This document shows, piece by piece, positions 43,619-63,350 of a stretch of 64,000 bases of DNA (positions within the stretch are counted from its first letter, which is position 1; every line of letters starts with the position of its first letter). Origin of the DNA: Pseudogymnoascus verrucosus (Eukaryota). The notes under the pieces are model-generated. The model was not told the origin of the DNA. It made no database searches and saw only the letters and a program-made list of their open reading frames with translations. The stretch is from NCBI GenBank assembly GCA_001662655.1, contig KV460234.1. The stretch is one strand, 5' to 3'. The translations under genes were made by a program, and so were the position numbers.

Positions 43619-46361
43619 ATGGCCCCCCCACCAAGATCGACCTTGGATGCGGACGACTTGCTGTTGAATGGCTTCTTCAAGACGTCGAGAAGCCGGCAAA
43701 CTGCCCCGTCTCCGTGAGTTCACTACGCCAGGTCTAGTGAACTAAACTAACCAGTACAGGCCTCCCATCTACGGTTCACTGCCAGTTAACCTCCAAGCAC
43801 CCTCTTTCTACGACACCACTCAACCCTCGAGACCTCGGCAGCCCCCAAGAAAGGGCTGGCCGCCGAAACCACACTGCGAAGATGAGAGAGACTCATTGGT
43901 GAGGGAATATGGGGAGGCACACGCGAAGGCTTTCTACGACCCGCCCTCCAAAGGTGTGATAGATCAGCTACCTATCCTCTACGACTCTGAGCTCTCTGTC
44001 TCCGATTCTATGAAACCCGAACCCACAAAGCCAGAGCCACCATGCCGGAAAGATGACAACGGCGAGCGACGTTTCGTGCTTGTACCCAAGCCGGATACCC
44101 CCTCCTCGTCTGAGAACGACACTGCAGGGAAATCCAAGAAGGTGCCTGTCAAACCAGTCGTCGTCCAAGAACAAGTGAAACCAAGGCACCATAGAGAGGG
44201 TCGAAATTCTCCCCCAGAACAAGTGAGACCGAGGCATCGAAAGGAGAGTCGAGATTCCCCTCCGCCCATAACTCGAAGGAGAAGTCGGCAGGATCTGCCT
44301 GCTCTGACCACGAATCTCGAGCCTCACCCCCCACCATTCCGCCGTTCGACTTCGGCATACGCTTACAATCCGAGGCATGATGATCCTGGCCGCACGGTTA
44401 GAAGCCCGTCAGTGATTCCGTCAGCGAATGCATTCTTATCTCCTGAGTCGTCTGCGGGAAATGGAGGCCTGTTTGATATCGCTGCCCACTCACTACCAAG
44501 GAAGTATGGCGGCTCATCCCCAAAGCCTAGCTCACCGATGACCGAGAGGAAACCAACCTTGAGTGGATCGTTGCAGCCGCATATGCTAGGTCATGATAAT
44601 AGCCGTGGGAGTGTGGACAGCAGACCTAGATCCAGAGGAGATCCAGCAGAGAGACCGCCACGGCCCCTGCCGTTGGGTGATGATAGTAGCTCGCGCCGCC
44701 CAGAACGACCAAGTTCGCGGCTCAATCAGCATGACAGCTCTGATCGTCGCCACTCACGGCAGTCCTCAACCCAGTCAACCAGGAGAGGATACGTCAGCAG
44801 TGACCTAGATGATAGCGACTCGTCAAACTCCGACAGGCGACGTCGGCGCCACCATCGTCACCCATCTCGCCACGGGGACAGTCTGTATCCTGAAGTCGAA
44901 CCTTCGCGACATCGCCGGACCGGTTCCAATCAATCAAATCTTGATTTCGGTACTCCCAAGAAAACATACTCCATGCCACTCCCCAGCCCACGAACAGGGG
45001 GAGCAGGGCCGCTTGCAGCAGTTGGCCTCGCTGCGGGGCTGTTAGATAGCCAGAGAAAGGACACATACCCACCTGTATTTGAGAATACAGCGGGATCGAG
45101 GCCTGTCTCTCCGTTTTCTCCATATGGTTCAACCCCGCAGACGCCTTATACCGCTCCAGGTAGACAAAGGGACCTGAGTCCTGTCGACATCGACCCGTTA
45201 TCTAAAGACCCCAATGCTACGCTACCGATGCCTATCCCAATGAGTGGGAGAGGACGTGGCGATGTACAATTTCCCAGTCCCTATGGCCAAGGTAGCTATC
45301 AATCTGGCACGCCTCCCACGCAAAAGGATTACTGGCAACCGCCTCCCTTCCAACCTCCAGTCGAATCTCCCCACCTCGAGGTCCCGAACATGGGCTACGT
45401 CCGCCGATTCTCCGAAGACATGGGCGGCGACGGCAGCATCGCTCCGCTCCTACCCTGTCCCCGCACCTCCCCCGTCCGCGGCAAAGTCGACTGGCTCACC
45501 CTCCCCAAATGCCGCGGCTTCAACATCTGCCCCTCCTGCTACCAATCAGCCATCGAACAAACTCCCTTCCACACCTTCTTCGTCCCCGCGCCCTTCCGCT
45601 CCCTCGACGACGAGGTAAGCTGCGACTTCGGCACCCAGCCTTGGTACCGCATCGCGTGGCTCCTCCTCAAGAAGAACCGCGCGAAGGACCTTGCTCTCCT
45701 CCACCAAATCGCACATATCTCCGCCACCACGCCACCCTGTCTCGGCGGCCACGAGGCAACACGGAAATGGCACTCGGTGCGCGACCCCGACTCAGGACGC
45801 CTCGTTCACAACTTTGGCGTCTGCCACGCCTGCTCGCAGGTCGTCGAGGCCCTGCTCCCGGCTACCCGCGGCCTCTTCGTGCCTACCCACCCTGAAGGTG
45901 CGCCGGCGCCAAAACGCACCTGCGATCTCCGCTTTGATAGCCCGCGCTTCTTGCACTACTTTGACTCGCTGGAACTGCTCGCTGACCGGGCTGGTGCCTC
46001 GGGACGCGCACTGGACTCACGCCCGTTCGTGGGGTTGGCGAAGCGCTTCGTTACTACGCAGCCGTGTAGGGGGGATAAGGATGTGTTTGATTCGCGGTGG
46101 TATTCTATCGCGCAGTTGCCTGAGCTGTCTGTGTGCGCTGAGTGTTTCGAGGAGGTTGTGCGGCCAGAGGCGGAGCGGCGGCGTGCTATTGCGGCGATGT
46201 TTGCGCTGGGGAGGGAGGTGCCGGTTGGGAATTGTGGGATGCATTCGCGGAGAATGAGGGAGGTGTTTAGGGAGGCTGTTAGGAAGGATGATTATGTGTT
46301 GTTGGCGAGGGCGGCGAGGGAGAGGAGGGAGAAGGAGGTTAATAGATTGAGAAGGGAGTAG
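43619..46361 (+). CDS. Uncharacterised Ser/Arg/Pro-rich protein with C-terminal repeated CxxC modules
   Basis: ATG 43619; intron 43714-43759 joins MAPPPRST...SP to PPIYGSLP in frame with the 821-aa ORF. Three W...(F/L)x(I/V)CxxC units near the C-terminus. Confidence 0.75.
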
Positions 46362-47463: not shown

Positions 47464-48881
47464 ATGTATTTAACATCCCTCAGACGCCCCCCAATGTGAG
47501 TCCTCAATCCATCAGTCATCCTCCTCAAACTTCTAAGACAGTCATCAAATCTGCATCCCGAACACCCTGCACCCCAGTCAACTAAAACATTTTTAGGCGC
47601 CTCCCACAACATCTCACCATGCTCCTTCGGACCACCCCCGCCCCAATCCGTCACACCTCCGCCCTCCACACCTCCGCACCCCCGCCCCTCACCCCAGAGC
47701 AAACCGCCATCGTGAAATCCACCGCCCCGGTCCTAGAGCAGCACGGCACCGCCATCACCTCCCACTTCTACAAGCGCATCCTCGCCGCCGTCCCGGAGCT
47801 GCGCAATGTCTTCAACGCCGCCCACCAGGAGTCAGGTGAGCAGCAGTCCGCGCTTGCCCGCGCAGTCTGGGGTTACGCTGCCCACATCGACGATCTGGAT
47901 AAGCTCTCCTCGACCGTCTCGCGCATTGGGCACAAGCATGCCGGACTCGGCGTAGCGCCAGAGCACTACCCCATCGTAGGCGAGCACCTCCTAGCCTCAA
48001 TCCAAGAAGTCCTCGGTGACGGCGTCAATGCCACTGTTATGGAGGCCTGGGCAGCTGCCTACGCGCAGCTTGCCGCAATCTTCATCGGTTTTGAGAAGGG
48101 TCTCTATGACGCCGCTGCCGCCACCCCAGGAGGTTGGAACGGCTGGCGCTCTTTCGTGGTCGAGCAGAAGACCCCAGAGAGCGGGGAAATCACTTCGTTC
48201 CACCTCGCGCCTCAAGACGGGCTTGCCCTCCCCCCTTTCCGTCCGGGACAGTTCGTAACAATTCGCTGTTTCGTGCCAGGCCTGAACCTCTTCCAGCCGC
48301 GCCAGTACTCCCTCTCTGCGCCTCCTGGATCCTCTCGGTTCCGTATCTCGGTCAAGCGCGAGGGGGGTGCTGATAGGCCTGCGGGTCATATCTCGAACTT
48401 GTTGCATGACGGGACGCCTGAGGGCGCGGTGCTGGATTTGAGTATGCCGTATGGAGATTTCACGCTCGATGCTGAGGCGACTACGCCTGTAGTCCTACTC
48501 AGTGGCGGCGTGGGACTGACACCCATGTTATCGATGCTGCAGACCATCACATCTGGTCCGTCAGAGCGGAAAGTTCATTTCGTGCATGCAGCGCGAAACC
48601 GCCATGTGCACGCTATGCGCGACGAGCTAGCGGCGGCGGTAGAGAAAAATGGGAACGTGTCGAGGGCGGTGTACTATGACGAGGTGGGGAAGGAGGATGT
48701 GAAGGGCGTGGATTATGATTTCCAGGGCCGCGTAGAGTTTGCGAGGACGGAGGCGCTGGTGGAGGGCGCGGATTATTATATTTGTGGCCCGGTGCCGTTT
48801 ATGGCGAAGCAGAGGGCGGATTTGGAGAGGTTGGGCGTGGAGCCTGGGAGGATTCATTCGGAGGTGTTTGGGGCTGCGTAG
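47464..48881 (+). CDS. YHB1: Flavohemoglobin (NO dioxygenase) with predicted mitochondrial presequence
   Basis: Exon 1 47464-47495, intron 47496-47596. Globin (IGHKH..PEHYPIVGEHLL), FAD domain (RQYSLS, ISVKRE), NAD domain (SGGVGLTPM, YICGP, HSEVFG). Confidence 0.95.
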
Positions 48882-49432: not shown

Positions 49433-52421
49433 TCAAGCTAAAGTCGGGGTCGTCGTCCCCTTCCCACTCGACATGCTATACGGCGCCTGGGACTCATTAG
49501 CTTCACTCAGAAAAGAAAGGGTTGGATCAAACTCACCAGCACCTTCCGCGCATTACAAATTCTCCACGCCAAATTCCTCACATTCCCATCCGCCAACACC
49601 ACTCCCGGCGCAAACTCAACACCAAATACTTCCTTAACCGCAAACACCACGCGGCGCGCGTACTTGCTCTCGCGCTCGACCAACTCTCCGAAGCCATCCT
49701 CCACTCCATCGGGCGCCACCTCCGGGTCGCGATCGAAGCAGTTGCGTACCACAGGGAGCAACGCCTCTTCAATAGCAACACGCACGGGTCCCGTCGTGTC
49801 CTCCTCGTCAAAGCGTGCAAGGCGCACGGTGAACGGCCGCGAGATAGCCATGACGTTGTGCTTGCCATCATGGTGGTACCGGAACTCGAACACGCCGTGC
49901 GTCCAGAACAGTTTGTCGCCACCGAAGACCATCTCGCCCTGCACGAGGTCGCTCTCGCCGTCGCCACCTTTGTACGGCTTGTTCGACGAGAGGATACCGG
50001 TGTCAGCGATGGAGGAGTCGTATTCGTCGCGCGAGGTGGGAATCCAGCGCCCAACGGAGGCGATGCGGGTGACGTCTCGCGAGGCGTTGTCAGCGACCAT
50101 GTAGAGACCGATCCAGTCCTTGTGGCTGTGGTTGGCAGGGGCGGTCCACTTCACGCGGATGGGGGCACCGTATTCGAAGGTTCGGGATTTGAAGGGGCTG
50201 CTTGTGGTGGTAGAGGAGTCTTCGATGTTGATGGAGTAGTCCTTGGGGTTGTAGCCTGCGAGGTCGGGTGCCAGGCGAGTGATAGTCAGTCGTGCAGGGT
50301 ACTGCTGGAAGAGTGCCGTGGTGTCGCGGACAAAGGTGGAAACACCAGTCGCGAGCTTGGGACGAGCAGCATCGAGGAAGTCCTCGACAAAGTGACCGGT
50401 ATCTCCCAGGACCTTGTCGACGCTGCCGTGCCATGACTTGAAGTGTGGTGGCAGGGAGTTGCGGAAAGTCTTTGTCAGCCCAGCCTCTTTGCGGAGGCTC
50501 TGTCCGTAAAGCTTCTGCATGTGAGGCTTCTCAACGAATTGGATGAAGCCGAGAGCGAGCATGTGGCTAAGTAAGGCCAGGAAGAACACGGCCTTGCTAT
50601 TCGTAATGAATACTGCTCCCCAGACACCCGCGAGGCCGATGATGCGCTCCGGGTTGTTCAGGTATCTGTAGATGCCGCTGTATGTCAGTTTTGGTGCATG
50701 GTCGAAGAAGAAATCGCCGTAGAACCATCCAAACTCGCTGAGAGACTCGTAGATGCTCACAGCAGTCCAGAGCTGCAGAGCCACAAGGGCGAATCCAAGA
50801 ACATGTCTTAAGAGGACTAGTCCGTAGTCCCAGTCTGGCGGAGACGAATACGATTTCCATGCTGCTGCAACGAAACTGATCCAAGCCATTGACATGCTGA
50901 GGTGATACATGCCCTTCCATTGACGCCATGCCTCCTCTGCGCTCTCTCCGTACTTGACAAAGTGGCGGGTCCACAGCTTCATGTTAGATTGTTGATCGAG
51001 GATTATTCCCAATCCAAGGCTGTACCATAATCGCCACGCGGTAGCATGGAGGACAAATAATGCCTGCCAAATTGGTGTGCTAGGCGTAAAGAAGGTCAAC
51101 AGCGCGGTGTACATCACCAGGAGGAGTACAGACACGTCCGTGATCCGATATGGGTCAATATTGTCAAATCCCATGACATTGTGGAGGTTAGACGGCAGGG
51201 CAGGTGTCACTGGAGACCTGGGTCTGATGGGTTCCAAGACAGGTTCCTCTGGCACTCCCTCAGCAACAGCTGCTTCGTGGCTTGCTTCCTCAACTTCGGC
51301 ATGGGTAGGGTTCGTATCTCTTCTGGTTCTTGGCGCGGGGGGGTTGTAGATCTTCTCAATATGAGGGTTCTCAACCAAGACAAGGAATGCGAATTGGGCG
51401 GCGTGTGCAATAATGGAGATGAAAAGCACCGAGTAGCTGGAGGCCATCATAGAGATGCCATAGTATCCGGCGTATCCGACGGAGTACATGGGATGAGGCG
51501 CCATCTCAAAAACGCCGTCGAATGTCAACTCTTGGTCGATAAGGTAGAAAAAGTCACCCCAGTACCATGCATAATCTTTGACAACACGATGGGCATCAAG
51601 CTTGACCCAGACATTAAAACCGAAGAGGATAAGGCCAGTGACCCAGCGGGCCGCGAACATCAGATAGCTCTCATTCACTGGTTGGCTTCCACATGCAATC
51701 GCGAATAGGCAGTACGTTGAGAAATCGCACATGAGAATGAGATCTACGACACGTCGGAAGACAAGCCAGGTGTTATACTCGATCGGCGCCTTCTCAAAAC
51801 TGTAATCTTCCGGAATCTTTGCCTCCAGCTCGCGCTTCAGAAGGTCATACAACCAAGGTCTTGGATTCTTTCCCGATTCTGGCTTCTCGAAGAGCTTCCA
51901 TTGCTTCGCCCAAGTCTCCATCTGTCTGTGGTTGGATTGTACGCGTAGGAGGTAGCCAATCCCCACATTGTAGCAAGCTCTCCAGAACAGAAATACGACA
52001 GCAAATAGAGGGACCCGGAGAAATCGTGGGAGGATGTAGAGGAGCAGGATGTGGCCAGCCATGACGGCCAAAACGGCCACATCAGAAAAGTTCTTTGGCT
52101 GTCGAGGGTCGAGGAGCTGCGAGACCATGTCGTGTGTGTGGGGAACTGTGAAGACTACGCGGGGTAAGAGTTAGTCGGGTTCTTGCTTTTTACTCATTAT
52201 TTCCCAACGGCAGCTCCAGATGCACTGAGCTCTGCAGCGCGGGACAAAAACTTACTGGTTCCGTCTGGGGTTCGCCCAAACGTCTTCTTCTCCTTCTCCA
52301 GCTCCTCCACATCGGCGGCATCGCCCGCATTAATGACGTTTGGCGTGTTTTTCTCATCAGAAAGTCCATGCCTCTCTCTCAGGCCCTCCGCCCTGGTGGG
52401 CGGCTCATGGGATGTGCTCAT
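49433..52421 (-). CDS. CHO2: Phosphatidylethanolamine N-methyltransferase
   Basis: Introns 52255-52155 and 49536-49487. [54 protein letters not shown]. Confidence 0.96.
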
Positions 52422-53447
52422 GTTTGTCGCGCTCGCAAATGTAGAAAAAGAAAACTCGCTAAGCACAAGAGCACAGAATAAATGGTTTGCAGTTATCACA
52501 AGACCGTGGGCGACGTTGACAGATTGAGCCCGCTCTCGGATAAGCTCCAGAGAGGGTCTGGTCCACTTTTTAACGGGGGGAGCTGAGCTGTTGCTTCGAT
52601 AGAGTTCCAACGAAAGCCAAAGCTTTTTATTATGGTCTTATCGGCGGGTTTCTATGTAGATTTTGGTTGGATTTGGTTGGATTTCCGAGTCTGGTGTCTG
52701 TTGTTTGTCCTTATATAGCCGGGAATCGGGAGAGTGAGGGTATATTCAGATGATCTACTTGAGTTACAGTGTACTCTTGGACTGTGTTCTGCAGTGTGTT
52801 CTGTATTCTGTATTCTGTGTACTTGTTGGCATGAGTTCAACGGCGTCTGTATGGTGCAGATCTATGCACAGTATGCAGAGTATAGTAGAGTACATTAACA
52901 AGGAAAGCACAAACCGTGCCTTGTTGGAGAGACAAATAAACGAAAGTCACCGCCCACCAACACCACCGCCCCAGCGGTCAGGAAGGGCAAAATGACATGG
53001 TAATTGAACCGCGTGTGGCCGAGAGAGACACATTAAAGACAGCAGAGCTATCCACCAATTTATCCACCAGTTATCAGATATAATATATAGTTTATTAATG
53101 TATTTATACTTATATTTCAACGTCAAAACAGAAAAAAAGCCCAATAATGACGAAATATAAAAAGAAAACAATAATAAATGCAATACAACTCTAATTGGGA
53201 TCCTTGACACGTGAAAATTGGGTAGCAGCACACGAGCAGCCAATCCGGGCGTAGCTCCATCTGTCCTTACGCTTTGCCTTATTTTGACTTCCCGTGGTTG
53301 ACCGCCTCCCGATTAAATTCATTCTGCCAACGTGCTTATCAATTTCCGAGGAGTTTCCCAAATATATACCCCGCCACCAGCATCTCTCACCAACTTCACC
53401 TCGTCAACAACACGCATGTTGGGCGATTTCGACTCCTCAAATCCATC

Positions 53448-54482
53448 ATGTCTCCCTCACTAGAAGAACCGACCGCCAGCGATGTCCTCGATGTCATCAA
53501 AAACCCGCTCAAAGCCCCGCCACAGCTGGTCGCCCCAGAGCCAGAACACTGTGTAGGTCCAGAGTCCGAACAAGCCGGCACCGCAGATTCCTGCCAAGGT
53601 TGCCCTAACCAAGCCATCTGCGCTTCCGCACCGAAGGGTCCTGATCCCGATATACCACTCATTACGGCACGCCTTGCATCCATCTCTCATAAGATCCTCG
53701 TCCTCAGTGGCAAGGGCGGCGTGGGCAAGTCCACCTTCACCACCCTCCTAGCGCACGCCTTCGCCCGCAACCCCGCCTCCACAGTCGGCATTATGGACAC
53801 AGATATCTGCGGGCCCTCGATCCCCAAGATGATGGGTGTGGAAACCGAGACCATCCACGTCAGCGCCTCGGGCTGGAGTCCCGTCTGGGTTGCCGACAAC
53901 CTCGCCGTTATGTCCGTCCAGTTCATGCTTCCTTCCCGCGACGATGCTGTTATCTGGCGCGGCGCAAAGAAGAACGGATTAATCAAGCAATTCCTCAAAG
54001 ACGTCGAGTGGGGGCCCATGGACTTCCTACTTGTGGATACTCCGCCAGGAACATCCGATGAGCATCTCAGCGTCAATGCATTCCTCAAGGAGAGTGGCGT
54101 TGATGGTGCAGTTGTGGTCACCACGCCGCAGGAAGTTGCGCTCCTGGATGTGCGTAAGGAGATCGATTTCTGTCGTAAGGCAGGCATCAAGGTCTTAGGG
54201 CTCGTAGAGAACATGTCAGGGTTCGTGTGTCCGAAGTGCACGCACGAGAGTCAGATCTTCCAGGCGACGACTGGAGGAGGGCTCGCGCTGGCAAAGGAAA
54301 TGGGCATTCCATTCCTTGGGTCCGTGCCACTGGATCCGCGAATCGGAATGAGCTGTGATTATGGAGAGAGCTTCTTCGATGCCTATCCAGATAGCCCGGC
54401 TTGTGCGGCCTTGAAGGATGTTGTCAGGAGGGTGGGAAAAGAGGTCGGATTAGATGCAAAGGATGTCTTGCCTGAGGATTGA
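53448..54482 (+). CDS. NBP35: Cytosolic Fe-S cluster assembly factor Nbp35
   Basis: N-terminal C-x13-CxxC-x5-C cluster, [29 protein letters not shown]. Confidence 0.96.
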
Positions 54483-55073
54483 AAGGTGAACATGTTAGCC
54501 AGCGGCCGATGAGGCTGCCGTCAGGGACCTCACAACGACGTCAACGCGTCGCTCACTATCAAGACAAGGGCAGAGGAATAGCCAATCCGCCATACTGGTC
54601 AGGCTTAAAGGATAGAATTCTCCAAGCCAAGTCAAGTTGAGCCGCAATATACCCCATAGGTGCCATATACACGTTCGTAGAACTAGGTAATGCACCAGTT
54701 GCTGCAAAGCATCAGTTAGTCAAGAATCAAGAAATAATCCAATAGTATCAGTATCCATATGTCAGATGTAATGCTGTGTCGCTCTCGCCGTCTGCTCTCG
54801 CCGTCTATTTCCATCGTTTAGCGGACATGCAGCCCCTTTGTCTCCAGGGGAATCCCCAATCCTCATCCCCATTACCAGAACCTCAGGCCAACACCCCCCC
54901 TCCCACAGGCGAAGCACCCCCTTATAACCCAACTTAACTCACTCTCCTTTCAAGCGGCACAGTAGCGCAGTGGAAGTACCACTGTCTGGACAATCTGGCC
55001 AGGGCTTGGAAATGAATAAAAAAGGGCACCAATTCGACTCCCAGCAATCGACGACAATAAAAAAACAAGTTCA

Positions 55074-55130
55074 ACTTCGAGCAACCGACAAGAAATAAAC
55101 GATGACTTCGAGCAACCAACAAGAATAAAC
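55074..55130 (+). repeat. Two-copy ~27-bp direct repeat
   Basis: acttcgagcaaccgacaagaaataaac / acttcgagcaaccaacaagaataaac. Confidence 0.8.
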
Positions 55131-56180
55131 AACGAATACATAACATAACATCAAAAAGTAAAATCAAGTGATTTTCTCCTCATCAAATCTCAAGACGCTG
55201 AGATTTGATGAGCCTTTTGCACTTTTGACCTTTAATTAAGTCTTTTTCTTCAGGTTATCTTTACTTTTGTTATTCTCGGATTTTAAAGCTGTTTGTGAGA
55301 CGCAGTGATCGGAGGTCAGTCTTCATACAAACAACCACCTCCAAATATTCAGTACTCCTCTCCAAATCCACCCGCACAATATAATAATCTTCTCCTTCCG
55401 TCTTCTCCCTCAGGCTCTTCAACGAAGCTTCCAAGATTCTCTCGTTATCTCTGTAGGTCAACGGGGGCTGCATGCGGAAATGTCAACCCACGTGATGGGG
55501 TTCAACAACAAAGCATCCTCGCCGTCTTCTCCAGATGCATACTGTTTACCGTGGAGAGCGCCTCAAAATATCTAAATCTTACAAATACGTGACAAGATAA
55601 ATGACTATGCATATGAGCATCTGGTTTATTTGGTTGTGGAAGAAGTTATTGAGTTCGAAGATTTACCCCTTTATATTTATCATATCAAATATATAAAACC
55701 ACTCACACATAATCGCACCTAATAACCTACATATGTGCCGTCTGAATATCCAAATATTGATGCCATATAACCTTCCCACATGTGGCTCCCTCGCAACCCA
55801 AACCTGATTCCGAAAAGTAGACAAGATGTTTGTTAGATCAGCCCTTTCCCTCGAGTCGGCCACGCTCACGACAAAGAAGATCCGCAAGCATCATCCCCTT
55901 TATTCCTCGTCCTCAAGATCTTTTGTCCTCACCTCGCATCATCTTTATTCACACACCCGTCCTTGTCTTCCCTCGCCGTCCTCGCCCATCAAAGGACCCC
56001 TCTCCCAAACAAAGCACTTTCGTATACTCATCCACCCCTTAAAATGCCCATCCCTATAGGCCCCCTCGAATATTTGTTTTACTTCTCAATCCATCGATCG
56101 ACAACAATTCACTCCTCCCCAACGCGACTAAGCACACAATTAAACCCACAAACCACCGCTCGAACAAGAGCTAGGCCGCC

Positions 56181-59060
56181 ATGCCTCCCAAAAAAGGAGT
56201 CTCGCAAGGAGGGCTAGGAAGCCGCACCGGGCTACGAAGCCAAGGGGGCACCAACACCAACCCGCCAGAACCCAGCGCAGGCGCAGGCGCCCCCGCGTTC
56301 GACCCAAACAACCCATACGCCCCCGGCGCCCTACCACCTCGCTCCTTCTACGGTCCAGGATTCCAGGGACCCACACCCACCCCATCCCTGTCCACTCCCT
56401 CGCAACTCCAGCCCCGGCCCGGCGAGGATCCCGCGGCGTTCGAGCGGCGCCGCGAAACGCGGAATCGACTCAACGCCATGCAGAGAGAGAGGCGGGCTCG
56501 GAGTCGCGCGGCTGCCTTGGCTGCCTTGGCTGCCGAGGATGGTGGGGATGGTGGGGATGATGGGGATGATGGGGATGGTGGGGAGGCGGCGGCGGAACCG
56601 CGGAAGAGGAAAGGGCCTAGGAAGTTGCTGGTGGATAGGATAAATGAGGCGGCGACGAGGGTGACGAGGAGTGCGGTCGAGAGGGACGAGGAGCTCGGAA
56701 ACTGCCTTCATTGCTCCAGGGGCCCGACGTGGCCGCTGAAGTGCCATGGTGGCGATGAGTGTATTGAGTGCGAGGTGAGAGGGATTGCGTGCAATAGGGG
56801 GAATAAAAGGCACTTCGACGTAAACCGGAGAAGACAGCTGGAGGGAGTGGAGCCCTGGCGCCCGGATGTTGATCAATGCCAACAATGCAAGAGTAGGGGC
56901 AGTAAGTGTTTTATGCCCAATATGCTGCTGCCGGGGCCGTGCGACATGTGCCGGCTGAGTGGTCTGGAGTGCAGTATAGAGCCTCTTCCGGTGAGGCGAT
57001 GTCCGAATTGTCACTGGGAGCACAAATGTGTTGAGTGCGCCAGAAACCACCTACGCTGCGATGGAAAAATCCCCTGCTTGGTGTGCGTCCGCAGAAATAT
57101 CGAGTGTGTTGGCCTTAAACCCGATGGATCTTGTCCGGATATACCTATATCAACATATGGCACGGGTCTGCCACCCCCTCCGCAGCGTATGAAGGTTAGG
57201 CCCACTGTTGATATGAGGAATTGGCCGCCACCGAGTGGTCGACTTGAAATTTCAGGCAATGTGGCCATTCCAGGCGCTCCTAGAGAGTATCAAGTCTTAA
57301 ACGTTGGAGCAGGGTATCCCGGTGTTGCAGGACCAGCTCCAGGAGCATATGTAAGTCCATACGCAGGACCAGGACCAGCGGCAGAACCAGCTGCAGGGCC
57401 AACTGTCGGAATATTTCCACCACCAGTCGCAGGACCATCTTTGGGACCATCTCCAGGACCCGTCCCAGGACCATCTTCAGGTCCATTTGTAGTTGCAGGT
57501 CAACTTTCAGATCCATTTGTAGGACCGACCCAGTCCCCACCCGTCGCGGCAGGTCCAAGTTCCCAGCCGCCCGGGCAAAATCCTGGATCCAACCCCAATA
57601 ACTTCCGCAACAGCCTCTACAACCCCTTCGACGACGACAAGCCACCATGCAGCCACTGCAGAGCGGATCCCCAGCACCGCATTTGCGACCAGGACACCCC
57701 CTGCTGGGAATGCTCTCAACGAGGCATCCTAGAGCCAGAAGACTGCCGGACCTCCCGACCATGCGAGCTCTGCTTCATGAACGAGCTGCCATGCGACGCC
57801 GGTTCTCCCTGCCAGAACTGCATGTTCCTCGGATTCGGCGTTGATGAGTGCCGTCCCGAAGGTCTCGGTCCCCAACAATACTTCCCGGATAACCCAGAAG
57901 AATCCGATGACGAGCCGTACATTCGCCTCCCAGGACAGCCGGAATTCGACTACAGCTGTGCCTTCTGCGTCGCGTATGGGTTCCAGGGGTGCGATCCGCG
58001 GGATCGGCCGTGTTTGCCGTGCATCCAGCACGGACGGACGGCGTTGCAGTGTCGCTTTGAAGAACGCTGTGCTAGGTGCATAGAGCTGGATGTGCCCTGT
58101 GATGGCAAAATGCCTTGCTCCTTGTGCGCCAACGCGGATGGGTTGACTAGTATGACGTGCCTCGGCCGCGGGGACACAACGATGCCGGGGACCTTCATCA
58201 ACGAGCCCCCTCAGGAGGGAGACGACATCCCGATGGGCGAGGGAGGTGACTACCCACCTCCCGATGGATTTGGGTATCAGTTCCCCCCACAAGGCGGGAA
58301 TGACCCCTTTGCTCCACCTGGAGTACCACAAGAGTATGTCGACCCTGCCGCTTTAGTTGCTCAAGGAATCCCAGGACAATCAATCCTTCCACAGGAAGAG
58401 GTCCCTCGAGTACCACCCGGAGGCTTCTTCTTCCCGCCGGCACACGTCCGAGAGACACTTCTCCCCCACTACCGCATCCGCACAGATGTATACGGCAACG
58501 GGCAATTCGATCCTCAACCAGGAGCCCATGTCAACTGGCGGCCGTGGAATGAAAACTTCAGGTGCAAAGAGACCCTTGCAAGTGGGTATGTTTGCAACGT
58601 CCTCCCAACCATGGACTGTGACGGCGGCGAAGAGCACGGAGACGAGGTATGGGGCGTTTGCGGGGCGTGCCGCGTACGTGCGGAGGAAAGCACGGCTCAA
58701 CTCCTGGAAGAGATTGAGGAGAAGAAGAACCTGTTTTGCTGCTTCACATGCTCACAGGCACAGATGAATAAGTTCCTCAGCGGCACTGGATTCGAGAATA
58801 GTGAGACATTGGTGGATAATCACTGTGATTGCGACACTCAGATGCGGGCTTGGCTGTGCTATGCGTGTAAGACTAAGGTGATCTATGCTGTGGGCAACCG
58901 GATGATAACGACGAGGGAAAAGCTGACGCGAGATTCTGATAACGCTATACTCTGTCCAAGATGTGGAGTTGAACCTGGGAATAAGGAGGCGGCGTATACT
59001 TTGGCTAATGGGGTCGCGAGGTGTTCGAGCTGCTGGGTTTGGATTAACTATGCGAAGTGA
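56181..59060 (+). CDS. Intronless 959-aa protein with seven Zn(II)2Cys6-like modules and a Cys-rich C-terminal domain
   Basis: Single long ORF; seven CxxC-x6-9-C-x5-10-CxxC-x6-10-C units; basic NLS-like PRKRKGPRK; Pro/Gly linkers. Confidence 0.85.
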   Translation: MPPKKGVSQGGLGSRTGLRSQGGTNTNPPEPSAGAGAPAFDPNNPYAPGALPPRSFYGPGFQGPTPTPSLSTPSQLQPRPGEDPAAFERRRETRNRLNAMQRERRARSRAAALAALAAEDGGDGGDDGDDGDGGEAAAEPRKRKGPRKLLVDRINEAATRVTRSAVERDEELGNCLHCSRGPTWPLKCHGGDECIECEVRGIACNRGNKRHFDVNRRRQLEGVEPWRPDVDQCQQCKSRGSKCFMPNMLLPGPCDMCRLSGLECSIEPLPVRRCPNCHWEHKCVECARNHLRCDGKIPCLVCVRRNIECVGLKPDGSCPDIPISTYGTGLPPPPQRMKVRPTVDMRNWPPPSGRLEISGNVAIPGAPREYQVLNVGAGYPGVAGPAPGAYVSPYAGPGPAAEPAAGPTVGIFPPPVAGPSLGPSPGPVPGPSSGPFVVAGQLSDPFVGPTQSPPVAAGPSSQPPGQNPGSNPNNFRNSLYNPFDDDKPPCSHCRADPQHRICDQDTPCWECSQRGILEPEDCRTSRPCELCFMNELPCDAGSPCQNCMFLGFGVDECRPEGLGPQQYFPDNPEESDDEPYIRLPGQPEFDYSCAFCVAYGFQGCDPRDRPCLPCIQHGRTALQCRFEERCARCIELDVPCDGKMPCSLCANADGLTSMTCLGRGDTTMPGTFINEPPQEGDDIPMGEGGDYPPPDGFGYQFPPQGGNDPFAPPGVPQEYVDPAALVAQGIPGQSILPQEEVPRVPPGGFFFPPAHVRETLLPHYRIRTDVYGNGQFDPQPGAHVNWRPWNENFRCKETLASGYVCNVLPTMDCDGGEEHGDEVWGVCGACRVRAEESTAQLLEEIEEKKNLFCCFTCSQAQMNKFLSGTGFENSETLVDNHCDCDTQMRAWLCYACKTKVIYAVGNRMITTREKLTRDSDNAILCPRCGVEPGNKEAAYTLANGVARCSSCWVWINYAK

Positions 59061-59886
59061 GGCGTGATACTAGAAGCATAGGAGAAGGAGGCGTTGGATA
59101 TTTGGCGGCGTTTGGGTTGGGTTGTTTGTCGTTGTTTCGGCTTAGTTTAATCCTACTGTTTAGATCAAAAAACGAGATATCTGCATCACCATATAGTTTT
59201 GTCAGTCCCTGTGTGATAATTGTAGTTACTTACCTCCTTCGATTCAGAGCTCTGTATCTGCGCTGTAGGAACCCAGAACACTGCGTTGTGTTGCTGGAAT
59301 AGATCAGCTCGCGTCGTTTGACTAGAATTCAACGACGGGCATGATTGCGAAAGCATAGTAGGCGATGAAGAATGATGAATATAATTGGCCTCAGGCCTGA
59401 TGCCTATCGACGAGGCAAACCATCTTGCAACCTGCATGATCTGCTTCGCCCTCTCCATCCCTATCTCATCCTACCATTCACCACCCGGCGTCACCCACTG
59501 CCGCTCCCACAAACCGACAAGCCAAACTCGCCATAAGATAAATCGGAGAGCATCATACAAACAAGGATATCCAGCTGAACAGAAATACGACACACAAACT
59601 GGGGGATTCCCCATGAAATTAAATATGGTAAAAAAAACTCCTAGTAAAAAGACTTTGACAAAATTAAAAACGGGAAATGGTTGGGAGGGTAACTCGGTCC
59701 CTGATGTCACATCCCGTTGACCTCCATGTCTATACCTTCGTTCATCCTCCATCCGCTAGAATGGAAACCCCCTCCAACTCCACCAACCCCGGTCCCACGC
59801 ACGCTCTCGCGCATTTCCCCTTTTCCAGTCGCCCATTGTAATCCACGCTGACGTATCGCTCCCTCCCCTTCAACCACATCAACACC

Positions 59887-60865
<979 letters not shown>

Positions 60866-62044
60866 TGTATAGGAAGTCGCGATGACTCTTGGGGATCGTA
60901 GAGGTGAGGTCCTGATGTTGAGAGGTGAGGTCGGTGGAATCTTATGCTGGCTCGGCGGTTGGTTGGGGTAGGTAGCGGATTGGAGGTGTTGAGGTTCTGT
61001 GCGTTCGAGACGGGACGGGGGTCTGGGGAAGCGAAAGCGACGTCAATTGCGAGCGACTCAGCAAGGTCGGACGTGGTGATATAGAGGAATAATTTGCCTC
61101 TTTTTATTTTTTGCTTCTCGCGAGGAAGATGTTTGGTGATATTGGGTTGATAAGTTTAGATGTGGATGGGGGGGAGGGATTAAACAGCGACTGAAGGCGG
61201 TGGTAGCGGGCACGGAAGAAAGAAAGAGAGACGGGTCCGTCCCAGCAACGTCGAGTTGAGTAGGGGGTTCGCGGGCGGTGATTGTGTGGGTTGTCACGTG
61301 CGGATTCGGACCTTTCAACCATTGAATTGAAGCGCTATCAAGCGCCCAGATATATACTATAACCATACTGTAACATCCTAATAACACCATAAATGCTGCC
61401 AGCACAGTGCTAGTAAGGTGAAGGCTGTAAAATGTCGAAGATCATTACTTCTTTACAGCTATCGCTCTCTCGATGGATGTCCCGATCTGGCACGACCGGG
61501 AGCTTTAGAGGCCCGATAAATAGGGGTCTCATAGAGAAGTATATATAAGTATATATCAATCAACTTTTTTACGGGTTCCATACGCCTCAATCCACAAACT
61601 AACCAACTGAACCAACTAAACCACGTCTATCCACGACTGTAGCCGACCTAACTCTTCGTCCTCATCACCCCCTCATTACCCTCATCACCCCCCTCACGAC
61701 CCATCCCCCCCCCCTTTACCCTTCTAGACCACATTTTCTAAGATAATGGGCAGTCGATACTTCAAATTAAGTTCCAATAGAACCATTTTTTGCGGGGGAG
61801 CTACTTTATTATAGGTCACTAGTTCCGATGTCACTTCCTTCTAGCGTGAACATGAAACGCCCATCGAACTAAGGGTACCAGCGTACCATTGTATCCATGT
61901 ATCGTCTCTCCTTTCCTTTCCCAATCTTTTTCTCTTCATCTCAAGCTCAGATGTCAGAAGAATCTCTCACACGGCTGTGACAGGCAGGCATGGCAGGTGG
62001 CAGGCGGCAGGCGCGACACGCGTGACAAGGCTGGTCTTTCTTGC

Positions 62045-62145: not shown

Positions 62146-63350
62146 TCACTGGCTACCCTGCTCAACTACCCCCTCGACATCGTCTTCCCCCTCCACCAAC
62201 ACCCTCTTTCCTTCTACATTCTTCTCTACCTCATCCACCAAGCTCTCCAGAAACGCCTTGTCCCTAAACAAGCACCATTAGCCACATGCACCACTCCCAC
62301 TATGCACTGCCAACACTTACCTCCCAACCAGCGTCACTGTATTCGACCCCTTCCCGAACCTCGGGTAGCTCCCAACCTTCACCCCCTTCTCCTCCACCCT
62401 CGCCTGTAGCTTCTCCAAGTACGGCGCCACAGCACTCTCACTCATCGGCGTACTAATCATCACCCTCCTTATCTCCTCCCCCAACCTCTCCCCATACAAC
62501 TCCCCCAGACCCAACAGCAACTTCTCAAACAACCTCGGCACCCCAGGAAGAACATGCACATTCCCCCCCACACACACAACCGGCACCCACAGCTCCTCAA
62601 CCGGGAACAGCACCTGGTCCTTCCACTCCTTCCCCTCCCCCCCATCCCCAGCCAGCGGCAACAGCACCATCCGTTCCTTGGCCCGACGCGCCTCGCTGTC
62701 TACAGTCCAATCGAAGTTCGGCTGCGACTTGTGCGGTTTCGCCAGCCGGCGCATGCGCGCATAGGCGACCTCGTGCAGCACGAGCGGGACACCGAATGCT
62801 GTTGCTAATGAGGAGTACGTGATATCATCGTGGGTAGGTCCGATGCCGCCGCTCGTGATGACGAAGTCGTATGCGGCGCTCAGGCGTTTCGCGGACTCGG
62901 CGATCGTGTCGGCGTCGTCGGGGATGGTCTCGATGCGCTGGAGGGCCTGGATGGGGGGGTTAGCTTATGCATAGATGCGGGAGGGGCGTAGGGTAGGGAA
63001 AACGCACGACGCCGTGGGAGAAACACCATTTGGCCATGAATGCCGAGTTTGTCTGTGCGTGTGTCAGCACGCATGCTCGCTCTAGCCGTCGATCGATCGC
63101 CAATTAGACTGTGCGCGGGCCGAGATTTCTCACATCTACTGTCTGAGCATCATTAGCTTGTTACTTCATCCCAGCTGGCTGTTCTAGAACCACATACCTT
63201 CCCCCCCAGCACCTCGTCCCCGATAATCAGGCACGCGGCCGTACGGATCATTCTAGTCCCCGACATGCCGCCCGCAGCTGCAGACGTATGTGCGTAGTTT
63301 GGTAGTGAGCGCGAGAAGTGGCGCGCGATGTGTGAGACGCGGGAGAACAT
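62146..63350 (-). CDS. Molybdopterin-binding (CinA/MoCF) domain protein, FAD diphosphatase Fpy1-like
   Basis: Exons 63350-63198, 63142-63134, 63052-63008, 62946-62321 and 62263-62146. ACLIIGDEVLGGKTVDTNS, TSGGIGPTHDDITY, VLPGVPRLF, VKVGSYP. Confidence 0.9.

What the first reader, a model, noticed from the sequence alone, without database searches (positions are those of the whole stretch)
56181..59060. Protein with seven Zn(II)2Cys6-like clusters in a 3+2+2 array
Seen: modules at about 56703-56792, 56877-56972, 57027-57107, 57648-57746, 57762-57851, 57957-58052 and 58068-58160. Modules 2 and 3 have canonical Gal4-type spacing (e.g. CVECARNHLRCDGKIPCLVCVRRNIEC). Modules 4/5 and 6/7 are head-to-tail pairs, each joined by a 5-aa linker. 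Modules 5-7 lack the basic residues of the recognition segment (FMNELP, VAYGFQG, IELDVP). I see no fungal TF middle-homology region and no intron. Established: Gal4-family factors nearly always carry one cluster and bind CGG half-sites, often as dimers. Inference: an atypical polydactyl zinc-cluster protein that may read a long or repeated DNA target as a monomer, with the acidic modules repurposed for protein binding. This is my best candidate for an undescribed system in the window.
Basis: partly seen in the sequence, partly recalled or inferred. Interest (0 to 1): 0.8.

Follow-up and report, generated by a model that had tools for sequence, protein, structure and literature searches.

The report
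Fungal protein with seven zinc clusters
A Pseudogymnoascus soil fungus has a conserved, unstudied gene whose protein strings together seven Gal4-type zinc-cluster modules and a new cysteine-rich tail, although regulators of this family normally carry a single cluster.

Summary
Window 56181..59060 (+) is an intronless 959-aa ORF. None of 2000 shuffles gave two or more modules.

Pfam Zn_clus passes its cutoff for the whole protein (29.9 bits) and for module 3 alone (33.1). Modules 2, 4, 7 and 1 score below cutoff, and modules 5 and 6 score nothing. A profile of modules 4-7 alone still retrieves almost only solved Zn2Cys6 domains (13 of 14 rows).

All 61 cysteines are conserved across 11 aligned relatives. 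All named relatives are Pseudogymnoascus. An exhaustive search of 1.84 billion representatives found one distant multi-module relative, with 13 modules, the same A-B pairs and the same tail.

Most likely this is a nuclear zinc-cluster regulator: the basic N-terminal half binds DNA, and the acidic paired modules and tail bind partners. Function is inferred, because both structure models failed. I rate it a new variant of a known kind.

The parts
56181..59060 (+). Complete intronless CDS, 959 aa (P0001), stop codon included
   Evidence: ORF listing and translation. The N-terminus MPP.. and the C-terminus ..WINYA. are shared with orthologues.
56430..56540 (+). Basic, Arg-rich predicted helix (aa 84-120, net +5)
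   Evidence: AF2 places helix 84-119 here; it is the best-scored part of the whole-protein model (block pLDDT 57-64, still low). Charge.
56537..56584 (+). 9-nt tandem repeat encoding an acidic D/G run, expanded only in the window's closest relatives
   Evidence: TRF period 9, 5.3 copies. The alignment shows the run only in P0001-P0003.
56601..56624 (+). RKRKGPRK (aa 141-148), an NLS-like basic stretch. A K/R-R-K core is kept in 6 of 6 full-length relatives.
   Evidence: The NLS reading is inference from the motif type (recalled).
56703..56792 (+). Module 1, spacing 2-9-5-2-6, atypical
   Evidence: Pfam Zn_clus 12.2 bits, E 0.21, below cutoff. Mean identity 0.77 among 6 full-length proteins.
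56877..56972 (+). Module 2, canonical spacing 2-6-10-2-6, basic recognition segment KSRGSK
   Evidence: Zn_clus 19.0 bits, E 0.0016, just below the 21-bit cutoff.
57000..57023 (+). Extra CxxCHxxH motif (aa 274-281) abutting module 3, conserved wherever the region is present
   Evidence: Alignment. Role unknown.
57027..57107 (+). Module 3, canonical spacing 2-6-5-2-6 with the CD...PC hallmark
   Evidence: Zn_clus 33.1 bits, E 5.9e-8, above cutoff. Best PDB sequence matches are Put3, Cep3 and Pho7.
57108..57260 (+). Conserved post-cluster segment (aa 310-360) with invariant YGTGLPP and WPPPSGRL motifs
   Evidence: Invariant columns in A1/A2. Mean identity 0.73.
57261..57611 (+). Variable Pro/Gly-rich linker (aa 361-477) with 12-nt coding repeats
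   Evidence: Mean identity 0.26. GC3 0.325 for aa 321-477. Repeats.
57648..57746 (+). Module 4 (A-type), spacing 2-8-5-2-10, net charge -4
   Evidence: Zn_clus 15.6 bits.
57762..57851 (+). Module 5 (B-type), spacing 2-6-5-2-9, net charge -5, no basic recognition residues
   Evidence: No Pfam hit alone. hhalign to the canonical modules 88.9%. Mean identity 0.84.
57852..57956 (+). Conserved acidic inter-pair linker (aa 558-592, net -7) with invariant aromatic residues
57957..58052 (+). Module 6 (A-type), spacing 2-7-6-2-9
   Evidence: No Pfam hit alone. hhalign to the canonical modules only 36.3%.
58068..58160 (+). Module 7 (B-type), spacing 2-6-5-2-10; the most conserved module
   Evidence: Mean identity 0.89. 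Zn_clus 14.1 bits. hhalign 93.4%.
58161..58415 (+). Acidic Pro/Gly/Gln-rich linker (aa 661-745)
   Evidence: Net charges -6 and -5 for its two halves.
58416..59057 (+). C-terminal conserved domain (aa 746-959): an HVR..L..YRIR motif followed by 16 conserved Cys (C, C, C, CxxC, CCxxC, CxC and 3 more CxxC). No known family.
   Evidence: 34% identity, E 9e-27, to the 297-aa protein P0016. 26% identity, E 0.002, to the tail of P0015. No Pfam family passes and no PDB sequence relative.

Best explanation
This is a genuine, selectively maintained, single-exon Pseudogymnoascus gene. It encodes a zinc-scaffolded nuclear regulator built from seven Zn(II)2Cys6-type modules, which would hold 14 Zn if each binds two, plus a new C-terminal domain with 16 cysteines. 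I propose a division of labour. The net-basic N-terminal half (Arg-rich helix, KRK stretch, and modules 1-3, of which 2 and 3 are canonical Gal4-type) would target the protein to the nucleus and contact DNA. The two strongly acidic, near-invariant head-to-tail A-B double modules (4/5 and 6/7) and the C-terminal domain would be zinc-stabilised surfaces for partner proteins or for control of activity. Shown here: the architecture, its conservation, its homology to Zn2Cys6 domains, its charge polarity and its very narrow distribution. Inferred: zinc binding, nuclear location, DNA binding and the role of the acidic modules.
For: There are seven modules at the stated coordinates, and 0 of 2000 shuffles gave two or more.

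Homology to Zn2Cys6 domains:
- Pfam Zn_clus scores 29.9 bits for the whole protein and 33.1 for module 3, against a cutoff of 21.
- A profile of modules 4-7 alone hits 13 Zn2Cys6 proteins among 14 PDB rows. The best is Cep3 at E 0.0017.
- In-box hhalign gives A-type vs B-type 95.7%, B-type vs canonical modules 93.3% and A-type vs canonical 84.5%.
- The CD...PC hallmark is present in modules 3-7. The hallmark positions come from PMC7295025 (passages).

Conservation and selection:
- All 61 Cys columns hold no non-Cys residue among 11 aligned relatives.
- Modules are 0.67-0.89 identical and the tail 0.75, against 0.26-0.33 for the linkers. This is purifying selection on the modules.

Charge polarity:
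- The N-terminal half is net positive. Modules 4 and 5 and the 558-592 linker carry -4, -5 and -7.
- The Cys2-Cys3 segments of modules 1-4 hold 2-3 K/R/H each; those of modules 5-7 hold none.

The distant relative P0015:
- Its five N-terminal modules sit in linkers of +10, +3, +3 and +3, including an RGRP core. They are followed by four pairs and the same tail.
- HMMs built only from Pseudogymnoascus-type modules recover the A-then-B order in 3 of its 4 pairs.

Native-gene features:
- GC3 of the structured parts (0.62-0.70) matches neighbouring housekeeping genes (0.63-0.70).
- The gene has no flanking repeats.
Against: Six of the seven modules fail the Pfam cutoff individually, and modules 5 and 6 give no Pfam hit at all. 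The modules 5-7 profile reaches only E 0.057 against PDB, and 5 of its 13 rows are unrelated Cys-rich proteins. hhalign support is weak for module 4 (50%, 15 columns) and module 6 (36.3%), and the module 1 match is out of register (13 columns). Profile scores on short Cys-rich segments are poorly calibrated. Both AlphaFold models are unreliable (mean pLDDT 31.9 and 39.1), and Foldseek found nothing, so no binuclear cluster has been modelled. There is no middle-homology domain and no coiled coil next to a cluster, so the usual Gal4 dimer mechanism has no visible support. I obtained no evidence of expression, localisation, DNA binding or zinc content. The whole protein is net acidic (-23).
Confidence: 0.5

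Rival explanations
1. The protein is a zinc-scaffolded adaptor that does not bind DNA specifically. All seven modules and the tail would be small zinc-stabilised interaction knobs for proteins or RNA, strung on disordered linkers. The Gal4-type fold would have been co-opted wholesale.
For: The most conserved modules are the acidic ones that lack recognition residues: module 7 at 0.89 and module 5 at 0.84. The whole protein is net -23. There is no dimerisation element and no middle-homology domain. Conserved proline motifs (YGTGLPP, WPPPSGRL) look like peptide-ligand sites (inference).
Against: Modules 2 and 3 keep canonical spacing and basic recognition segments, and module 3 scores 33.1 bits against Zn_clus. 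The N-terminal half is basic with a KRK stretch. The relative P0015 embeds its N-terminal modules in very basic linkers with an RGRP core.
Confidence: 0.22
2. The protein is a zinc- or redox-responsive switch or a metal buffer. The paired clusters inside the acidic region would bind zinc labilely, or oxidise, so that metal or redox state masks or unmasks an activation surface. This is analogous to the zinc-sensing finger pair in yeast Zap1 (recalled, not checked here).
For: All 61 Cys are conserved. Paired modules are embedded in an acidic, aromatic-rich region typical of activation domains. Spacings in modules 4-7 are non-canonical, which could alter metal affinity.
Against: There is no direct evidence. 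The neighbours are housekeeping genes with no metal-homeostasis link: flavohaemoglobin, PEMT, a NUBPL-type ATPase, Ras and FAD synthase. The gene is restricted to one genus, which is odd for a core homeostasis function.
Confidence: 0.1
3. The gene is a domesticated or still selfish mobile-element gene, and its zinc modules derive from a transposon-borne DNA-binding array.
For: The gene is intronless and has a patchy distribution: one genus plus singleton relatives P0015 and P0016 from unnamed records. An earlier scan note reports a retrotransposon carrying a Zn2Cys6-like bi-module (e1-7551949; unchecked).
Against: No transposase, integrase or RT family appears at E<=10. There are no inverted repeats, and only one weak 21-nt flanking direct repeat (81% identity, 4230 nt apart), within 53500-61500. 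There is no RIP signature. Each named strain gives one hit. The composition is native.
Confidence: 0.06
4. The ORF is a non-functional or decaying sequence whose cysteine pattern is a relic.
For: Public gene models of the orthologues range from 551 to 957 aa. Several lack modules, and the P. destructans model looks frame-shifted.
Against: The frame is open for 959 codons. All 61 Cys are conserved in 11 relatives, at overall pairwise identities of only 0.54-0.75 among the six full-length ones, and there is a sharp contrast between module and linker conservation.
Confidence: 0.02

Closest known systems
Gal4/Put3/Pho7/Cep3-type Zn(II)2Cys6 binuclear cluster DNA-binding domain (Pfam PF00172)
   Same: The six-Cys CxxC..C..CxxC..C motif. 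Modules 2 and 3 have canonical spacing. Modules 3-7 carry the CD...PC hallmark. Module 3 scores 33.1 bits, and the best PDB sequence matches are Put3, Cep3, Pho7, Gal4, Hap1 and Ppr1.
   Different: There are seven modules instead of one. Five modules have off-canonical spacers. Three have no basic recognition residues and two are strongly acidic. No linker or coiled-coil dimerisation element is visible.
CeGAL family (Zn2C6 cluster plus middle-homology/Fungal_trans domain; bioRxiv 10.1101/2022.06.15.496365, passages read)
   Same: A fungal Zn2C6-containing protein with its clusters towards the N-terminus.
   Different: No Fungal_trans or Fungal_trans_2 match even at E<=10. The defining domain pair is absent, so this is not a member.
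Two-cluster regulators: Bhr1 of Dichomitus squalens / PoZCP55 of Pleurotus ostreatus (PMC13532241; PMC7295025; passages only)
   Same: More than one PF00172 domain in one polypeptide. Bhr1 is a proven transcriptional activator.
   Different: Those proteins have two clusters near the C-terminus fused to septin-like NTPase parts. Here there are seven clusters, no septin domain, a different tail and no detectable sequence kinship.
P0015, an unnamed 1422-aa hypothetical protein (JGI record)
   Same: The only distant multi-module relative found. It has a basic N-terminal array of canonical-type modules, then A-B head-to-tail pairs with 5-7-aa linkers, then a homologous Cys-rich tail.
   Different: It has 13 modules (5+2+2+2+2) instead of 7. 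It is a singleton of unknown organism.
Polydactyl C2H2 zinc-finger proteins and the Zap1 zinc-sensing finger pair (both recalled, analogy only)
   Same: The principle of tandem zinc modules on one chain, with some modules diverted from DNA binding.
   Different: The fold is unrelated. No test was made here.

Membership tests
Zn(II)2Cys6 binuclear cluster domain (PF00172) | Pfam score at or above the gathering cutoff (21 bits) | tested here: met
   The whole protein scores 29.9 bits. Scanned singly, only module 3 passes (33.1). Modules 2, 4, 7 and 1 score 19.0, 15.6, 14.1 and 12.2, and modules 5 and 6 score nothing. The feature is met for the protein and for 1 of 7 modules.
Zn(II)2Cys6 binuclear cluster domain (PF00172) | Motif CX2CX6CX5-12CX2CX6-8C (as quoted in PMC7295025) | tested here: inconclusive
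   The motif is exact in 2 of 7 modules (2 and 3). The other five keep six Cys and both CxxC pairs but deviate in one or two spacers (x7-x9 for x6; x9-x10 for x6-8). An x9 last spacer is also listed among P. ostreatus family members.
Zn(II)2Cys6 binuclear cluster domain (PF00172) | Asp after Cys3 and Pro before Cys4 | tested here: met
   Both are present in modules 3-7 (5 of 7). Module 2 has the Pro only and module 1 has neither. Positions 12 and 16 are described as conserved in PMC7295025.
Zn(II)2Cys6 binuclear cluster domain (PF00172) | Basic residues in the Cys2-Cys3 recognition segment | tested here: not met
   Modules 1-4 have 2-3 K/R/H each. Modules 5-7 have none. The feature is met by 4 of 7 modules.
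Zn(II)2Cys6 binuclear cluster domain (PF00172) | Two Zn(II) bound by six Cys in a two-helix fold | tested here: inconclusive
   The AF2 models are unreliable (pLDDT 31.9 and 39.1). In the fragment model a short helix starts at each of the eight CxxC pairs of modules 4-7, as expected for the fold, but at low confidence. Foldseek gave 0 matches. Zinc content is not testable here.
Zn(II)2Cys6 binuclear cluster domain (PF00172) | Sequence-specific binding to CGG-type triplets | not testable with these tools
   This needs DAP-seq, PBM or EMSA.
CeGAL (Zn2C6 + middle-homology domain) | Fungal_trans / MHD downstream of the cluster | tested here: not met
   Only Zn_clus, plus a chance K_channel_TID row, is reported at E<=10.
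Septin-Zn2Cys6 activators (Bhr1/PoZCP55) | Septin-like P-loop parts (PF00735) with two C-terminal clusters | tested here: not met
   No PF00735 match. The clusters are N-terminal and central.
New family defined here (Pseudogymnoascus orthologues + P0015) | A-B head-to-tail double module plus the Cys-rich tail | tested here: met
   There are two pairs in P0001 and its full-length relatives. The A-then-B order is recovered in 3 of 4 pairs of P0015 by HMMs trained without it; the fourth pair is ambiguous. Tail homology is shown.

The most novel reading that the evidence does not exclude
The A-B head-to-tail double zinc cluster is a new autonomous module that no longer reads DNA. Copies of it (two here, four in the 13-module relative) would sit inside acidic, aromatic-rich regions, and together with the 16-Cys tail they would form a zinc- or redox-gated activation and partner-binding platform. 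The protein would then be a metal/redox-sensing regulator of a kind not described for the Gal4 superfamily. The alternative bold reading is a true polydactyl reader in which all 7 to 13 clusters contact an extended DNA array.
Probability: 0.12. Interest if true: 0.8.

Novelty: new variant of a known kind. Interest (0 to 1): 0.55.

Why it matters
Zn2Cys6 proteins are the largest family of fungal transcription factors. Textbook members use one cluster per chain and dimerise. In the one family survey I read, only 1 of 66 members was described with two clusters (PMC7295025, passages).

A conserved protein with seven clusters, and a relative with thirteen, shows that the fold can be arrayed like C2H2 fingers. 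It also shows that the fold can lose its basic DNA-reading face while staying under strong selection. That would give a natural test case for non-DNA roles of the Gal4 fold, and two new candidate domains: the A-B double cluster and the 16-Cys tail.

The gene is apparently confined to Pseudogymnoascus, the genus that includes the bat white-nose pathogen. The P. destructans gene model looks disrupted, which may be of interest for comparative biology of that genus. The practical impact is modest until a function is shown.

Tried and rejected
- Whole-protein AlphaFold2 with a 10-sequence alignment: mean pLDDT 31.9, unusable.
- AlphaFold2 of aa 478-668 with a 13-row alignment: mean pLDDT 39.1. Foldseek against PDB with that model gave 0 matches.
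- Complex prediction, two copies of aa 746-959: no verdict, score 0.00. This is not evidence either way.
- ESM Atlas look-ups: the tail gave no hit of 0.8 or more and only TM<0.4 rows. For modules 4-7 there was no feature hit, and the five structure rows (four with Zn_clus among the cluster's families, the fourth named a putative Zn(II)2Cys6 factor) had TM<=0.30. These are leads only.
- PDB sequence searches for the tail: 0 rows. The full-length profile gave only 4 weak rows.
- Searches for relatives of P0015 and P0016 returned only the queries themselves. Two metagenome-contig scans found no relative. As a result the organisms of P0015 and P0016, orthologue DNA, dN/dS and synteny could not be obtained.
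- No whole genome is held for the window, so paralogues could not be counted.
There is therefore no expression evidence.
- A bZIP reading of the basic helix is rejected: no bZIP family appears at E<=10.
- A secreted disulphide-repeat reading is rejected: the N-terminus is polar and basic with no hydrophobic leader, and the only LDL-receptor row was E 0.56.
- A biosynthetic-cluster regulator reading is rejected: the neighbours are housekeeping genes.
- Literature: five full-text searches for multi-cluster Zn2Cys6 architectures surfaced only two-cluster cases. A search for six orthologue locus tags found 0 papers. One recalled review id was not held.
Full report
**Where we are.** The window is fungal. 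Nine of the 12 relatives of the ORF product returned by the word-indexed search carry names of Pseudogymnoascus strains, and the other three are unnamed. Pseudogymnoascus belongs to Leotiomycetes, Thelebolales. The closest named relatives are 96% and 90% identical (VKM F-4519 and 24MN13).

The neighbours are ordinary housekeeping genes: a flavohaemoglobin (47586-48878 +), a phospholipid methyltransferase (49510-52170 -), a NUBPL/ParA-type ATPase (53226-54479 +), an intron-split Ras (about 60236-60734 -) and an FAD-synthase-like gene (62320-62964 -). This is not a biosynthetic gene cluster.

**Observation.** 56181..59060 (+) is an uninterrupted 959-codon frame. It starts two codons after an in-frame stop, in the context GCCGCCATG.

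The spacings are 2-9-5-2-6, 2-6-10-2-6, 2-6-5-2-6, 2-8-5-2-10, 2-6-5-2-9, 2-7-6-2-9 and 2-6-5-2-10. The linkers inside pairs 4/5 and 6/7 are 5 aa long. Of 2000 shuffles of the protein, 0 gave two or more modules and 35 gave one. The Cys2-Cys3 segments of modules 5-7 contain no K, R or H, while modules 1-4 have 2-3 each. No middle-homology family appears even at E<=10.

**Are the modules Zn2Cys6 domains?**
- The whole protein passes Pfam Zn_clus (29.9 bits against a cutoff of 21).
- Scanned one by one, module 3 passes clearly (33.1 bits, E 5.9e-8) and module 2 narrowly fails (19.0). Modules 4, 7 and 1 are weak (15.6, 14.1, 12.2). Modules 5 and 6 give nothing.
- A 4-sequence profile made only from modules 4-7 retrieves 14 PDB rows at E<=10. 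Thirteen are Zn2Cys6 proteins (Cep3, Pho7, Ppr1, Hap1, Put3), with a best E of 0.0017.
- A profile of the three non-basic modules 5-7 is weaker: best E 0.057, and 8 of 13 rows are Zn2Cys6 proteins.
- In-box profile-profile comparison over six full-length relatives plus P0015 gives: A-type (4, 6) vs B-type (5, 7) 95.7%; B-type vs canonical modules 93.3%; A-type vs canonical 84.5%. Individually, module 7 scores 93.4, module 5 88.9, module 1 73.5 (out of register), module 4 50 and module 6 36.3. Such scores on short Cys-rich segments are not well calibrated.
- Modules 3-7 all carry Asp after Cys3 and Pro before Cys4. These positions are described as conserved in a family survey (PMC7295025, passages).

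Structure prediction did not help. The whole-protein model had mean pLDDT 31.9 and the aa 478-668 model 39.1. In the fragment model a short helix begins at each of the eight CxxC pairs, as the fold would require, but at low confidence. Foldseek found nothing. By sequence, I judge five to seven modules to be diverged Zn2Cys6 units.

**Conservation.** All 61 cysteines of the protein sit in columns with no non-Cys residue among 11 aligned relatives. Of these, 42 lie in the modules, 2 in an extra CxxC, 1 at position 318 and 16 in the tail.

Among six full-length proteins that are only 0.54-0.75 identical overall, conservation by region is as follows:

| Region | Mean pairwise identity |
|---|---|
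| Modules | 0.67-0.89 (module 7 0.89, module 5 0.84) |
| 5-aa intra-pair linkers | 0.93 |
| C-terminal tail | 0.75 |
| N-terminus | 0.33 |
| Pro/Gly-rich linker | 0.26 |

This contrast is the signature of purifying selection on the zinc modules, and above all on the acidic ones. GC3 of the structured blocks (0.62-0.70) matches that of the neighbouring genes (0.63-0.70). There is no RIP signature, no inverted repeat around the gene, and only one weak 21-nt direct repeat flanking it (81% identity, 4230 nt apart).

1. A C-terminal domain (aa 746-959) holds an HVR..L..YRIR motif and 16 conserved Cys. It is 34% identical (E 9e-27) to an unnamed 297-aa protein, P0016, that has no zinc-cluster modules. 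It is weakly similar to the tail of P0015 (26%, E 0.002). It has no passing Pfam family and no PDB sequence relative.
2. A conserved CxxCHxxH motif abuts module 3.
3. An Arg-rich predicted helix (aa 84-119) and an RKRKGPRK stretch precede module 1.
4. Invariant YGTGLPP and WPPPSGRL motifs follow module 3.

**Distribution.** An exhaustive HMMER search with the orthologue profile, over 1.84 billion representatives, found 7 proteins at E<=0.001:
- two orthologue representatives;
- two fragments (P0014, whose cluster mate P0019 is a 969-aa full-length relative, and the 82-aa P0017);
- P0016, which has the tail only;
- P0018, a 626-aa protein with two modules and a different tail (E 3.5e-4);
- P0015, a 1422-aa hypothetical protein.

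P0015 has 13 modules in a 5+2+2+2+2 array with 5-7-aa intra-pair linkers, followed by the tail. HMMs trained only on the Pseudogymnoascus-type A and B modules score its pairs in the order A then B for three of four pairs:

| P0015 module | A-HMM score (bits) | B-HMM score (bits) |
|---|---|---|
| 6 | 41.1 | 11.3 |
| 7 | 6.7 | 38.2 |
| 8 | 19.8 | 12.9 |
| 9 | 21.8 | 37.2 |
| 10 | 29.2 | 13.7 |
| 11 | 21.5 | 40.1 |

The last pair is ambiguous. The head-to-tail pair is therefore an evolutionary unit, not a coincidence of this gene. P0015 and P0016 are singletons of unknown organism.

**Mechanism.** The protein is polarised. The N-terminal half is net positive, with basic recognition segments in modules 1-3 (and in module 4, which opens the acidic block). 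The block from aa 478 to 745 is strongly acidic: modules 4 and 5 carry -4 and -5, the inter-pair linker -7, and the following linkers -6 and -5. P0015 repeats this logic. Its five N-terminal modules lie in linkers of +10, +3, +3 and +3, including an RGRP core, and its pairs are separated by linkers of -16, -5 and -16.

My best reading (confidence 0.5) is a nuclear regulator that uses the basic N-terminal array for DNA, and uses the acidic double modules and the tail as zinc-stabilised partner or regulatory surfaces. Zinc binding, localisation, DNA binding and partners are all inferred.

Rivals are a non-DNA-binding adaptor (0.22), a zinc or redox switch (0.10), a mobile-element derivative (0.06) and a relic ORF (0.02).

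**Comparison with the known.**
- It contains PF00172 domains, but it is not a CeGAL protein: the middle-homology domain was tested for and is absent (family definition from bioRxiv 10.1101/2022.06.15.496365, passages).
- Proteins with two clusters are in print. Bhr1 and PoZCP55 combine septin parts with two clusters (PMC13532241, passages; PMC7295025, passages). A two-domain factor of Alternaria is mentioned in the introduction of PMC10305253. An earlier scan note says two-cluster proteins are already catalogued (e1-7518582; unchecked).
- I found nothing in print on arrays of three or more clusters and no paper naming six of the orthologue locus tags. These searches cover only the held open-access library. 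Domain-architecture databases such as InterPro could not be queried, so catalogued but unpublished multi-cluster architectures may exist.

**Verdict.** This is a real, conserved and uncharacterised gene. It is a new variant of a known kind: a seven-fold array of the Zn2Cys6 fold with a recurring double module and a new Cys-rich tail. It is confined, as far as can be seen, to one genus plus one 13-module relative (P0015) and two partial ones (P0016 with the tail only, P0018 with two modules), all unnamed. Interest is moderate to good (0.55). The architecture is surprising for this family, but no function is shown, and structural confirmation failed for lack of sequence depth.

Noticed in passing
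orthologue proteins P0002, P0003, P0005, P0010, P0011, P0012, P0013: Public gene models of the orthologues range from 551 to 957 aa. Several skip modules 1-3 or start after them, and one (P0002) changes frame in the tail. These look like annotation errors (false introns or starts) in an intronless gene. I could not check this without their DNA.
   Followed up: partly
P0011 (P. destructans model, 551 aa): The bat-pathogen orthologue model lacks module 3. It reads a differently framed stretch where the others have LKPDGSCPDIP, and it ends inside module 6. This may be real decay of the gene in that species, or a sequence or annotation error.
   Followed up: no
window 56537-56584: A 9-nt tandem repeat (5.3 copies) encodes a D/G run present only in the window's protein and its two closest relatives. 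It is a recent coding microsatellite expansion.
   Followed up: partly
window 57328-57522: 12-nt periodic coding repeats (Pro-Gly-Pro-x) build the variable linker. GC3 there is 0.325, against 0.62-0.70 in the structured blocks.
   Followed up: partly
window 43746-46358 (+): An 871-codon open frame with no Pfam family at E<=0.001. Its GC profile resembles that of the zinc-cluster gene. Not examined further.
   Followed up: no
P0018 (626 aa, unnamed): A weak relative (E 3.5e-4) with two long-loop six-Cys modules and a different Cys/His-rich C-terminal region. It has no Pfam family.
   Followed up: partly
window 60233-60734 (-): A Ras-family GTPase gene split by a short intron. It appears as two overlapping ORF pieces on the minus strand.
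   Followed up: no
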